Source: Perna viridis
Lineage: Eukaryota
DNA: 64,000 nt
Reading direction: 5' to 3'
Assembly: GCA_037379345.1 (NCBI GenBank)
Contig: CM074511.1
Span: 64,982,862-65,046,861 of the forward strand
A program made the position numbers. Each line of letters starts with the position of its first letter. Position 1 is the first letter of the stretch. Below, in pieces: positions 21,001 to 24,000 of this stretch.

Positions 21001-24000
21001 GTGAGGTTTTTAATTTTCAAATTATGACAAAAATACTGTGAAGATACTTTAGTTTGTGGAAATCAATATTGGAGGTTTTTCAAAATTTGTGAGATCTGGA
21101 TTTCAATAAACCATCTCAGTTTCTAATGGTCATTTCAAATATTATTGGGTGTTTGAACATGTGAGAAAATATATACATCACCATTAATCAGTTGTAAAAA
21201 ATGAGGTCATAATAGATAATAACATTGTGACATCACTACTCATAATAAAACGACTAACATGAAATTAATTTGGAATGCTTAAATTTTTAAGATTTCCAAT
21301 ATATTTGTAATAGTAGTCTTGAGGGGCCTGATGAGGGTCTCATCATGAATCACGATTCACAGAAAATAAATTTCCATGATCACGGATCATGAAAATATAA
21401 AAAGAGTATCCCCATTCAATTTCGATAATAGATATTCAGAAGCTGGTTGTTTGTATTGCAGATTGGTTCAATTAAGCTACAATCAAATACATTATTGGCT
21501 CATTACTTGTTTACGTGTTGAATTCTCCCAGGTTCTAAATTAAATAGCACCACTTCAACTCTTTACGCCAAGAAAGACAACTCAATGGAACTTTTTATTT
21601 GCGTAATGACAAAAAAAAATCACAAGAACAAAATATATGTCTCAATCACGAAGAATGAACACAAAACTCCAATGAAAATGATTCACAATGTTTTTATTAC
21701 AAATCACGAAAAATAAATCTATAGAAAAACAGGTTGCAACAGCGAAAAAGTGCTGATCACGAAGAACGAAAATAATCCATCAGGCCCCTCAGTCTTATGT
21801 GATTATTTAATGAAATCTTCCTTTCATCCAATATTTTTATTGCTTGAGTCATCAAAATCTCCATATTTAACAGCAACTGAATTCAAACCAGATCTACTGA
21901 AATAATCAACAGCCCTTACAAAATATGTGCCCTCAACAAAATCATCCTTTTCTAGTGTAGGTGTGAAATAAAATGAATTTGAAATGATATCATAGTCATT
22001 TATCCTTCTCAAAAGTCTTGTATATTTTTGTTGAAAAATAATCTCATATGTCAAGATGCATTTGGAAATAACATAATCATCTGACCATGTGATCAAGACC
22101 TTTCCTGTGGTCACATTATATAAGGTTAAATTAGTAACTATCCCAGGAGCAGCATCAGCCTTTTTACAGAAATGGAGTAGAACAACTTCTGGAGTCTGCA
22201 TTGTAAATGATTTGTTGTAGTAATGATTAAAGCTGATGATTGTATCATTAAAGATTTTTCTAGGTTCTTCAGCATTTCGCATTACTGAAAACTGTGAGAC
22301 TGAGGGGAAGTCAGGACTTCCAAAGTTCTTCCATGTTAGATAGGGGTTTGTTGTTTCATTATTATTAATTGAGTAGGCAATAACAACAACCACTGTTCCA
22401 TTTGGATTTGGAGGATCCAGACCCATTGAGAGATTAATAGAAATACTCTCCCCAATATTTGTATCCTTGCTACTGAAAATGAGAACAGATGCTTGCCATG
22501 AATCAGCTGATCCATACCCAAAGTAATAGTGAAGACTTGGGAGTACTCCAACAACATCAACATCAGATATAGGTGTAGTGCTACCATTACTCAATGTCTT
22601 AGTCAGTGTAGATGTGAGCTGATCCTCGCCTAACATACTCAAAAGATTCAACACTGAAAAGACTGGTTTTTTTATGAACTGCACATAGTTAGGTTCAGTA
22701 TCATTAATTTGGAATCTTGCTGTTAAAGTTCTCTCTGTAAACTGGTGTGGGAACCAGCTGAGAAAGGCATTATCATTGCTTAACAAAGAGTAGTTTGAAA
22801 TCACAGACTGTGAGTTTGAAACAATCACATTCTGATGTTCGCTAATCACCTTGGCAACCAGTGCAGCATAAGTGGCATCTGCCCTCCACAAAAAATTTCT
22901 GGACCATCCAACCATAGGATCAGCTTCATCATTATAAAATGGCTTGTCTTTCAGAGATGGAAATTTTTTGACAATTTGTTCAAATATTTTTATTTCTGCA
23001 TTCAAAATATTTTTAGACACCCCATTTCCTTTACAATGATATGAAAGAAAGTCTATTCTGACACCATGTTCACCAGTAAAATAGTTCTGACCATCTACAA
23101 CATGCTGAAGGAGACCATTTGAATAACTGTTGTGACCTAAATGGTCACAACCTGCAGCAGGACCACCAAGTTTCAATAAAGGACTAGCAGCATTTAAACC
23201 TTCTGAACAGGCATCATAGTAATTCAAAAAGCCCTGAACTGTCATTTTTACATTACCAAAGTCATGGCAATCAGGCTCATTCCAAGTCTCAAAATTCCAA
23301 GTTTTCACATTTTCAATACCATATTGTTCAATCAGGTGACTAGCCAAATCTTTTATTAAATCTCTCCATTGGTACACTTGTGTCTTATTTTCAAAATCAG
23401 TGAAGAATCCAGAGGGAGATCCCATTAGTTCAAATCCTGGTTTTAAGTCATACTGCTCAAGAAAAGTCAACAATTCAATTAGTTTTTTATAACTGTAAGT
23501 AAGGCCTCCACTATCATTCACTTCCACGGTCACCAAATCTAACAGCCAATGAATTCTAACCTGCTGAATGCCATCATGAGCTACTGAGCCAAGCAAAGCT
23601 AGATTTTGTTTCATGTCACTTCCATAGTCAAAATCATAGGCCCTTTCATGGGGCAAAGGGGGACAAAATCCAGTACTCCTCCAAAAATGCTTCAACTCAT
23701 GCTTTTTGTCCCAGGAATTAATTTGTAAATTATACTGCATTGTTCCTGCATTGGTAAGCTTTTTACTCCAAAACAAGAATGTCCAAATAATAAAACTGAT
23801 CATTTCACCTTTGAAATAAGCCATAAAATATAAACAACACCACCGCTGATAAGGTTTGAACACCTACATAACCTTTGTCCAATATCTAGTGGTATGTTGA
23901 CTTGATAGTTTGTCATATCATTGTCACATTCAAGGATAACATTACAGCTAGAGCTAAAACAACCTGTTCAATGTGCCATTACATAATTTATTCCTTTCCT

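What the first reader, a model, noticed from the sequence alone, without database searches (positions are those of the whole stretch)
21824..23863. Intact intronless alpha-L-iduronidase nested on the same strand inside a Rab-GAP intron
Seen: a ~2-kb ORF without introns, with both catalytic glutamates and a signal-like leader, sits between TBC exons 5 and 6 in the same orientation, while the TBC and RIMOC1 genes are split into short exons. Established: vertebrate IDUA is multi-exon, and nested genes are more often antisense to their host. Inference: a retroposed IDUA that stayed functional and may compete with the host as an alternative terminal exon or polyadenylation choice.
Basis: partly seen in the sequence, partly recalled or inferred. 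Interest (0 to 1): 0.7.

Follow-up and report, generated by a model that had tools for sequence, protein, structure and literature searches.

The report
Single-exon iduronidase gene inside a RabGAP intron
A mussel-family genome carries its complete lysosomal alpha-L-iduronidase gene as one uninterrupted exon lying, in the same direction, inside an intron of a TBC1D2B-like gene, a position that differs from that in Mytilus and oysters; it is a tidy but fairly ordinary case of a relocated nested gene.

Summary
On the minus strand, a 666-codon ORF (ATG 23824, stop 21824-21826) is a full-length GH39 alpha-L-iduronidase (IDUA). It matches human IDUA at E=1.7e-171 and keeps both catalytic glutamates. 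It lies in the 7.0-kb intron 5 of a 19-exon TBC1D2B-like gene on the same strand.

- **Function:** the gene looks functional. It sits in the mytilid IDUA clade (100/100) and evolves only 1.3-1.5x faster than its nearest relative.
- **Intron loss:** the intronless state is derived. Dreissena isoforms show a coding intron at the position of human intron 2, and the window's ORF runs straight through it.
- **Position:** in oysters and Mytilus edulis, IDUA models begin with the 5' exons of NAD kinase. In 3 of 3 chromosome-level Mytilus assemblies, IDUA and TBC1D2B are on contigs of different length. The TBC1D2B position is therefore lineage-specific.
- **Retroposition:** plausible but unproven. I found no target-site duplication. 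The only tail-like trace is the A-richest 60 nt of the window, 1.37 kb downstream.
- **Competition with the host:** untested. An in-frame stop 13 codons upstream of the ATG argues against a fusion protein.

No eukaryotic genome DNA was reachable, so intron status and synteny in relatives are inferred indirectly.

The parts
21824..23824 (-). IDUA coding sequence, one exon, 666 codons plus stop (TGA at 21826-21824). Alternative and probably true start at 23803 (M8), giving 659 aa.
23825..23863 (-). 13 open codons upstream of the ATG, preceded by an in-frame TAG at 23866-23864. Part of the presumed 5' UTR.
18095..25100 (-). Intron 5 of the TBC1D2B-like host (about 7.0 kb, the longest intron of the gene). 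GT at 25100-25099, AG at 18096-18095.
25101..25228 (-). Host exon 5 (coiled-coil region; 77% identical to Mytilus residues 306-349).
17963..18094 (-). Host exon 6 (70% identical to Mytilus residues 347-393).
5165..38241 (-). Coding span of the TBC1D2B-like host: 19 exon blocks. PH domain in exon 1; TBC domain in exons 14-16, with IxxDxxR and YxQ kept in exon 14.
21320..21791 (.). 472-bp MITE-like insertion beginning about 30 nt after the IDUA stop. Perfect 14-nt terminal inverted repeats, AAGACT on both flanks, two AATAAA on the minus strand. No other copy in the window.
20393..20452 (-). A-rich tract (68% A over 60 nt, with two AATAAA), 1.37 kb downstream of the stop. It is the A-richest 60-nt stretch on either strand of the window. 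Candidate 3' end or decayed poly(A) remnant.
24012..24369 (.). 52-nt x 6.9 minisatellite, 190 nt upstream of the IDUA ATG, in the presumed promoter region.

Best explanation
The ORF is this species' lysosomal alpha-L-iduronidase, a GH39 retaining glycosidase that removes terminal iduronic acid from dermatan and heparan sulfate. It is encoded by one exon, is under constraint, and lies in the sense orientation in intron 5 of a TBC1D2B-like RabGAP gene. The single-exon state is derived from an intron-bearing bilaterian gene and is probably old within pteriomorph bivalves. The position is not old: in oysters and Mytilus, IDUA lies behind the 5' exons of NAD kinase, and in Mytilus it is on a different chromosome from TBC1D2B. 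I infer that the gene moved into the TBC1D2B intron in this mytilid's lineage, most likely as a reverse-transcribed mRNA copy that took over from the source copy (retrogene replacement). I also infer that it is transcribed from its own start within a few hundred bases upstream and ends at signals within about 1.4 kb downstream, and that host transcription reads through it so it is removed with the intron. Shown: identity, integrity, nesting, derived intron loss, different position in relatives. Inferred: retroposition, replacement of the source copy, own promoter and poly(A) site, read-through.
For: Identity and integrity. The residues aligned to the human catalytic glutamates 182 and 299 (roles recalled, not read here) are E183 and E300, invariant in 9 of 9 aligned sequences. 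Orthologue-like placement: in a tree of 31 rows the window joins unnamed P0002 (100/100) inside a 7-row mytilid clade (100/100), with end branches 0.32 against 0.22. Two near-identical alleles in independent assemblies differ by 2 and 3 residues. Nesting. Derived intron loss: Dreissena X3 lacks 19 aa that align to human 82-100. A human exon starts at c.300, i.e. within codon 100, as the variant name c.300-3C>G implies (search listing). Littorina X1 and X2 differ by a single Gln inside the catalytic domain, the usual sign of a tandem acceptor. Different position in relatives: C. virginica IDUA X1 and NAD kinase X5 share 125 of their first 126 residues, the same 55,461,147-nt contig and adjacent accessions. 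The M. edulis model P0168 carries the same NADK N-terminus (E=1e-11). NADK is absent from the window (best E 0.88; N-terminal peptides). IDUA against TBC1D2B contig lengths: M. edulis 75,045,669 vs 126,317,657; M. galloprovincialis 74,365,144 vs 133,122,103; M. californianus 74,791,930 vs 142,435,203. Retroposition: the unit is compact and is followed on the correct strand by the A-richest 60 nt of the window. Degraded LINE reverse-transcriptase sequence lies in the same host gene on the same strand.
Against: No target-site duplication was found around the unit. The A-rich tract is not a pure A run and could be an ordinary AT-rich 3' end. If the source gene was already a single exon, lack of introns is not diagnostic of this move. 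Hints that it was: oyster isoforms vary only in the NADK-derived extension, and a 650-aa relative was called on a 648,354-nt contig. A sense-oriented retrocopy needs a promoter, and none could be tested. Positions in relatives rest on contig lengths, shared N-termini and accession order, not on coordinates. Whether a second IDUA exists in this genome is unknown. The window copy is somewhat faster than P0002: 75:58, 78:51 and 70:47 unique changes, p = 0.14, 0.017 and 0.033.
Confidence: 0.5

Rival explanations
1. DNA-level relocation. An already single-exon IDUA, with its own promoter, was moved from the NADK locus into the TBC1D2B intron by segmental duplication, transposon-mediated capture or a local rearrangement, not through an mRNA.
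For: No target-site duplication and no clean poly(A) run. The gene has a working arrangement in the sense orientation, which is easier if a promoter came along. A MITE-like element and a roughly 210-bp interspersed repeat in the same intron show DNA-level traffic.
Against: No trace of NADK exons or of its N-terminal peptides within 40 kb upstream or 21 kb downstream. The unit is compact and ends near the most A-rich tract of the window.
Confidence: 0.25
2. Extra copy. The genome still holds the NADK-linked IDUA, and the window's gene is a duplicate (retrocopy or otherwise) that shares or has subdivided the function.
For: Modestly faster evolution than the nearest relative. Genome-wide copy number could not be tested.
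Against: The tree places it as an ordinary mytilid orthologue. Among the best 120 of 1052 hits, no second close relative appears beyond its own two alleles. Species labels are missing for the unnamed hits, so this point is weak.
Confidence: 0.15
3. Alternative terminal exon. IDUA is expressed mainly from the host promoter by splicing of TBC1D2B exon 5 to an acceptor in front of the ORF, and so competes with full-length host mRNA.
For: Oyster RefSeq models join NADK 5' exons to the IDUA exon, so sense-nested IDUA is used as a terminal exon elsewhere.
Against: An in-frame TAG lies 13 codons upstream of the ATG, so no TBC1D2B-IDUA fusion frame is possible unless the acceptor lies in that 39-nt stretch or inside the ORF. 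No strong acceptor is evident there. IDUA would then be a downstream ORF. No fused model with a PH domain appears among the best 120 IDUA hits.
Confidence: 0.1
4. Old arrangement. IDUA in TBC1D2B intron 5 is ancestral for mussels and was lost elsewhere.
For: None direct. Synteny in the nearest relative (P0002) is unknown.
Against: Oysters and Mytilus share the NADK linkage. IDUA and TBC1D2B are on contigs of different length in 3 of 3 chromosome-level Mytilus assemblies, and also in the M. coruscus and older M. edulis scaffolds.
Confidence: 0.03
5. Unexpressed relic. An open frame that is no longer used.
For: No expression data could be examined.
Against: The 679-codon open frame in 36% G+C DNA has a chance probability of 3e-24. 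Catalytic and many structural residues are invariant. The protein branch length is comparable to that of orthologues. Alleles from two other assemblies differ by only 2-3 residues.
Confidence: 0.02

Closest known systems
Vertebrate alpha-L-iduronidase (human IDUA, GH39; PDB 4mj2, 3w81, 4kgj)
   Same: Same domain order and length. Colinear over residues 39-654 with E=1.7e-171. The WNEPD and NDEAD glutamates are kept, as is the C-terminal fibronectin-like domain.
   Different: The human gene is split by introns: intronic variant names such as c.300-3C>G appear in the search listing; the count of 14 exons is recalled. The window's gene has none in its coding sequence. As I recall, human IDUA is itself a host, with SLC26A1 in its intron 2 on the other strand; here IDUA is the guest.
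Retrogene replacement (e.g. amphioxus SYCP1; PMC5803294, abstract seen in the listing)
   Same: A single-exon copy at a new locus appears to carry the function of a gene that is multi-exonic in other animals.
   Different: Loss of the source copy is not shown here. The source may already have been a single exon. Poly(A) and target-site duplication hallmarks are absent or degenerate.
Host/nested gene pairs of mammals (PMC11694760 and PMC3192792; passages read)
   Same: A gene wholly inside a long intron towards the 5' part of its host. Single-exon guests are common: about 41% of human nested genes in the passage of PMC3192792.
   Different: Sense orientation is the minority class (about 37% in that passage), and this is a bivalve. 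Transcriptional interference is documented there and not tested here.
Oyster and Mytilus NADK-IDUA locus (RefSeq and CAG models); comparable to promoter-sharing pairs such as CPNE1-RBM12 (PMC2568002, listing only)
   Same: IDUA lies on the same strand downstream of another gene's 5' exons.
   Different: The host is NAD kinase, and models there join host exons to IDUA in frame. In the window the host is TBC1D2B-like, and an upstream stop prevents such a fusion frame.

Membership tests
GH39 alpha-L-iduronidase | GH39 catalytic (beta/alpha)8 domain | tested here: met
   PF01229 E=5.5e-111, residues 34-523 on profile positions 4-459 of 472
GH39 alpha-L-iduronidase | IDUA-type C-terminal domain | tested here: met
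   PF21200 E=3.4e-20, residues 564-654
GH39 alpha-L-iduronidase | Acid/base and nucleophile glutamates (human E182 and E299; roles recalled) | tested here: met
   E183 in WNEPD and E300 in NDEAD align to human 182 and 299 and are invariant in 9 of 9 sequences
GH39 alpha-L-iduronidase | N-terminal signal peptide for the secretory/lysosomal route | tested here: inconclusive
   Hydrophobic leader conserved among mytilid orthologues; no predictor available
GH39 alpha-L-iduronidase | Iduronidase activity | not testable with these tools
   Needs an enzyme assay
Processed retrogene | Lacks introns that the ancestral gene had | tested here: met
   The ORF runs through the position where Dreissena and human have an intron. 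However, the immediate source may already have lacked them.
Processed retrogene | Poly(A) tract at the 3' end | tested here: inconclusive
   68% A over 60 nt at 20452-20393, the top value in the window on either strand, but no pure run longer than 6 nt within it
Processed retrogene | Flanking target-site duplication | tested here: not met
   No direct repeat pairs the two flanks (seed 10, minimum length 14). Old duplications may have decayed.
Processed retrogene | Locus different from the source locus | tested here: met
   Indirect: NADK linkage in oysters and Mytilus, NADK absent from the window, and different chromosomes for IDUA and TBC1D2B in Mytilus
Processed retrogene | Source copy identifiable elsewhere or demonstrably lost | not testable with these tools
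   No eukaryotic genome DNA in reach
Intronic nested gene, sense orientation | Guest wholly inside one host intron, with host exons on both sides belonging to one gene | tested here: met
   19 colinear blocks against one Mytilus protein. Exons 5 and 6 have canonical sites, and a shared split Arg codon matches R349.
Intronic nested gene, sense orientation | Independent transcription unit | not testable with these tools
   Needs CAGE, long-read RNA or 3'-end sequencing

The most novel reading that the evidence does not exclude
In pteriomorph bivalves, IDUA is a single-exon 'lodger' gene that lives as a sense-oriented terminal exon inside other genes' introns and depends on the host's promoter. 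It lodges in NAD kinase in oysters and Mytilus, and it has switched host to TBC1D2B in this mytilid. On this reading, output of a lysosomal enzyme is coupled by splice/poly(A) choice to a different housekeeping or membrane-traffic gene in different lineages.
Probability: 0.1. Interest if true: 0.6.

Novelty: new member of a known kind. Interest (0 to 1): 0.33.

Why it matters
This is a clean, datable example of a housekeeping lysosomal enzyme gene that became intronless and then changed genomic address while staying functional. Its relatives (oyster and Mytilus NADK-IDUA) show that the same gene can be wired into a host's transcripts. For bivalve genome annotation it gives a practical warning: the oyster 'IDUA isoforms' with long N-termini are NADK-IDUA chimeras. 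Sense-nested single-exon genes like this one are also easily fused or missed. Beyond that, it adds one more case to the known classes of nested genes and relocated or retroposed genes.

Tried and rejected
- **Target-site duplications** around the unit: none found.
- **The oyster/Mytilus N-terminal extension in the window:** tblastn with 8 N-terminal pieces at E up to 100 gave only chance-level hits, best E 0.027 inside a tandem repeat. Full NADK gave best E 0.88.
- **Similarity of the extension to TBC1D2B:** none. Pfam on the extension: nothing.
- **A TBC1D2B-IDUA fused model in relatives:** none among the best 120 of 1052 IDUA hits. The 'longer' length class was not searched.
- **Other copies of the MITE-like element:** none in the window. 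The motif count alone is weak: 6 of 100 shuffles reach 2 matches.
- **JGI/IMG fragments of the P0004 cluster as a test of intron status:** 13 fragments examined. 11 are 3'-anchored with varied starts and 2 are internal pieces ending before residue 650. That pattern fits transcript or contig-end truncation and decides nothing.
- **Literature:** iduronidase+intronless (3 papers, none relevant); NADK+IDUA (11, none relevant among the 10 listed); iduronidase+Mytilus (3, none relevant); TBC1D2B+nested (10, none relevant among the 7 listed). I therefore found nothing in the held library on this arrangement. Supplementary files were not consulted.
- **Limits of the ORF scan:**
  - Minus strand: 149 of the first 150 minus-strand ORFs of at least 40 aa were scanned (the IDUA ORF was left out), and 121 of the other 133 (12 inside the 51.6-55.5 kb satellite were dropped).
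  - Plus strand: only 8 of 283 plus-strand ORFs were scanned, so plus-strand genes with short exons could have been missed.
- **Not done:**
  - dN/dS was not computed, because no orthologue DNA was available.
  - The closed metagenome and viral collections were not used.
  - The bacterial/archaeal genome collection was not used, as it is irrelevant here.
  - No structure prediction was run; the match to solved IDUA made it unnecessary.
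Full report
**What is there.** The window has no N and is AT-rich, with G+C of 0.28-0.40 per 2 kb. On the minus strand a stop-to-stop frame runs from 23863 to 21824. The first ATG, at 23824, gives 666 residues. From the window's base composition, a given frame stays open for 679 codons with probability 3e-24.

- The protein matches Pfam Glyco_hydro_39 (E=5.5e-111) and the alpha-L-iduronidase C-terminal domain (E=3.4e-20).
- It aligns with human alpha-L-iduronidase from residue 39 to 654 (E=1.7e-171).
- The two glutamates aligned with human 182 and 299 (acid/base and nucleophile; roles recalled, not read here) are present in WNEPD and NDEAD. 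They are invariant in an alignment of 9 bivalve and octopus sequences.
- The N-terminus is a hydrophobic leader shared with the mytilid orthologues, whose proteins start at the position of the window's second Met (23803).
- A tblastn of the near-identical protein P0001 finds one ungapped match and no other IDUA-like sequence in the window.

**The host.** A Pfam scan of minus-strand ORFs found the following:
- RabGAP-TBC pieces at 9848-10174, 8471-8800 and 7889-8203.
- A PH domain at 37831-38280, and RIMOC1 pieces at 57950-58108, 56563-56760 and 50081-50308.

Scan coverage was incomplete. I scanned 149 of the first 150 minus-strand ORFs of at least 40 aa, and 121 of the other 133; 12 inside a satellite were dropped. 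Only 8 of 283 plus-strand ORFs were scanned.

The PH exon alone, searched against longer proteins, returned 3 hits. Two are Mytilus 'TBC1 domain family member 2B-like' proteins with PH and TBC domains; the third, P0124, is a Mytilus galloprovincialis model joining the PH exons to a TROVE domain. Mapping the M. californianus protein (948 aa) onto the window by tblastn gave 19 colinear minus-strand blocks from 38241 to 5165. I dropped two weak extra hits in a tandem repeat (E 0.35 and 0.60). The M. edulis isoform gave the same picture; there I dropped one plus-strand hit of E 0.48.

Block 5 is 25231-25100 and block 6 is 18102-17962. The boundaries are canonical. Exon 5 ends with two bases of a codon that the first base of exon 6 completes to Arg, which matches R349 of the Mytilus protein. 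The two flanks therefore belong to one gene, and intron 5 (25100-18095, about 7.0 kb) is its longest intron. Exon 14 keeps the IxxDxxR and YxQ motifs of an active RabGAP. I searched and mapped exons singly and did not build a joined model.

Both genes are on the minus strand.

**Whose IDUA is it?** Among 1052 hits (best 120 listed), the closest named proteins are Mytilus edulis IDUA (65%) and M. coruscus IDUA (60%). Two unnamed assemblies hold 666-residue proteins that differ from the window's by 3 and 2 residues, i.e. alleles.

In a maximum-likelihood tree of 31 rows, the window's protein is sister to an unnamed protein, P0002 (100/100). Both sit inside a 7-row mytilid clade (100/100) beside Mytilus (87/87). 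Its end branch is 0.32 against 0.22 for P0002. Relative-rate counts are 75:58, 78:51 and 70:47 with three outgroups (p = 0.14, 0.017, 0.033). This is a modest acceleration, nothing like a decaying copy. The gene behaves as the ordinary IDUA of a mytilid mussel that is not Mytilus.

**Is the lack of introns derived?** No eukaryotic genome DNA was in reach, so I used isoforms of one gene from one assembly as a proxy for introns.
- Dreissena polymorpha isoform X3 lacks 19 residues. They align to human residues 82-100 (the 3w81 chain index is 26 lower than full-length numbering).
- The variant name c.300-3C>G (found in 4 papers; search listing only) implies that a human exon starts at c.300, inside codon 100.
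- The 3' edge of the Dreissena skip therefore coincides, to within a residue, with a human intron (intron 2 as I recall). This argues for an intron inherited from the bilaterian ancestor.
- Littorina X1 and X2 differ by one Gln inside the catalytic domain, the usual mark of a tandem acceptor.

The window's ORF runs through both positions, so its intronless state is derived.

How old the loss is remains open.
- In three oyster species, all isoform differences lie in an N-terminal extension and none in the enzyme body.
- Mytilus RefSeq proteins have a single 655-residue form.
- A 650-residue relative was called on a 648,354-nt contig, and a pterioid relative on a 12,332-nt contig.

These hints suggest, but do not show, that the body was already a single exon in the pteriomorph ancestor. 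The JGI/IMG fragments of the P0004 cluster do not help. Of 13 fragments, 11 are 3'-anchored with varied starts and 2 are internal pieces, so the pattern decides nothing.

**Is the position old?** No.
- The oyster N-terminal extension is the 5' part of NAD kinase. Residues 1-150 of C. virginica IDUA X1 hit a 456-residue NAD kinase at 58% identity over 86% of the query.
- IDUA X1 and 'NAD kinase-like X5' of C. virginica share 125 of their first 126 residues and then diverge. They lie on the same 55,461,147-nt contig and have adjacent accessions. Ostrea edulis shows the same co-location.
- The M. edulis models CAG2189495 and CAG2189496 begin with the same NADK peptide (E=1e-11).

In oysters and in Mytilus, therefore, IDUA lies on the same strand behind NADK's 5' exons, and annotators find transcripts or models joining the two.

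- In the window, neither these peptides nor NADK are present within 40 kb upstream or 21 kb downstream.
- IDUA and TBC1D2B sit on contigs of different length in 3 of 3 chromosome-level Mytilus assemblies. The same holds for the scaffold-level M. coruscus assembly (535,137 vs 1,125,998 nt) and the older M. edulis assembly (2,775,622 vs 3,371,521 nt).

The shared oyster-Mytilus state is the older one, and the TBC1D2B address arose in the window's lineage. This rests on contig lengths, shared N-termini and accession order, not on coordinates.

**How did it get there, and how does it work?** The unit is compact.
- A 52-nt minisatellite lies at 24012-24369, 190 nt upstream of the ATG.
- A 472-bp MITE-like element, with perfect 14-nt inverted ends and AAGACT on both flanks, begins about 30 nt after the stop.
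- At 20452-20393 there is a tract of 68% A with two AATAAA. It is the A-richest 60 nt on either strand of the whole window.

That tract could be the worn poly(A) tail of a retroposed mRNA, or simply the gene's 3' end. No target-site duplication was found. Degraded LINE reverse-transcriptase and RNase H sequence lies in intron 2 of the same host on the same strand, so the machinery existed and sense insertions were tolerated.

I rate retroposition about twice as likely as a DNA-level move. I cannot separate them, because a source gene that was already a single exon removes the usual diagnostic.

Here, however, an in-frame TAG 13 codons upstream of the ATG would stop any frame entering from exon 5. 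The simplest working model is therefore an independent transcript, with host read-through and removal with the intron. Thirteen AATAAA/ATTAAA motifs lie on the minus strand between the stop and exon 6, which is unremarkable in such AT-rich DNA.

**Comparison with what is known.** Nested genes are common, and single-exon guests are frequent. The antisense bias is mild: about 63% opposite strand and 41% single-exon in human (passage in PMC3192792), and 'broadly similar' proportions (passage in PMC11694760). 'Retrogene replacement' is an established category (abstract of PMC5803294). Four searches of the held library found nothing on intronless IDUA, NADK-IDUA, iduronidase in Mytilus, or nesting in TBC1D2B.

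**Verdict.** This is a real, well-formed feature, a new member of known kinds: a sense-nested single-exon gene and a relocated, probably retroposed, gene. The most interesting by-product is the change of host between lineages and the NADK-IDUA chimeric models in oysters.

Noticed in passing
window 45865-47703 (+): A 612-residue uninterrupted ORF between TBC1D2B exon 1 and RIMOC1, on the opposite strand. No Pfam family. Residues 330-612 resemble N-formylglutamate amidohydrolase-type proteins by language-model features (0.93-0.94), which is a lead only. It may be a second intronless gene in this window.
   Followed up: partly
relatives: C. virginica XP_022342573-6 and XP_022342577; O. edulis; S. 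cucullata; M. edulis CAG2189495/6: The long 'IDUA isoforms' of oysters are chimeras that start with NAD kinase's 5' exons (125 of 126 residues shared with NADK X5). Mytilus edulis models show the same join.
   Followed up: yes
window 21320-21791: A 472-bp MITE-like element with perfect 14-nt terminal inverted repeats and AAGACT flanks, inserted just after the IDUA stop. It carries two AATAAA on the gene's strand. No other copy in the window.
   Followed up: partly
window 29368-32504 (-): Degraded LINE: RVT_1, RNase_H and zf-RVT matches in several broken frames, inside TBC1D2B intron 2 and on the host's strand.
   Followed up: no
window 51577-55533: About 4 kb of satellite (30-nt unit, 145-nt higher-order period) with strong GC skew. 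It lies between RIMOC1 exons (56563-56760 and 50081-50308).
   Followed up: no
window 24012-24369: A 52-nt minisatellite, 6.9 copies at 90% matches, 190 nt upstream of the IDUA start.
   Followed up: no
window 19367-19579, 48247-48459, 3974-4167: A roughly 210-bp interspersed repeat family (85% and 78% identity, one copy inverted). One copy lies in the same intron as IDUA.
   Followed up: no
Mytilus galloprovincialis VDI74270.1 (P0124): This model joins TBC1D2B exons 1-2 to a TROVE-domain protein, so another gene may follow exon 2 on the same strand in Mytilus. Only the two TBC1D2B exons match the window.
   Followed up: partly
window 8890-10046 and 17147-17887: Tandem arrays (72-nt and 25/52-nt units) in host introns next to the TBC-domain exons and to exon 6.
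   Followed up: no
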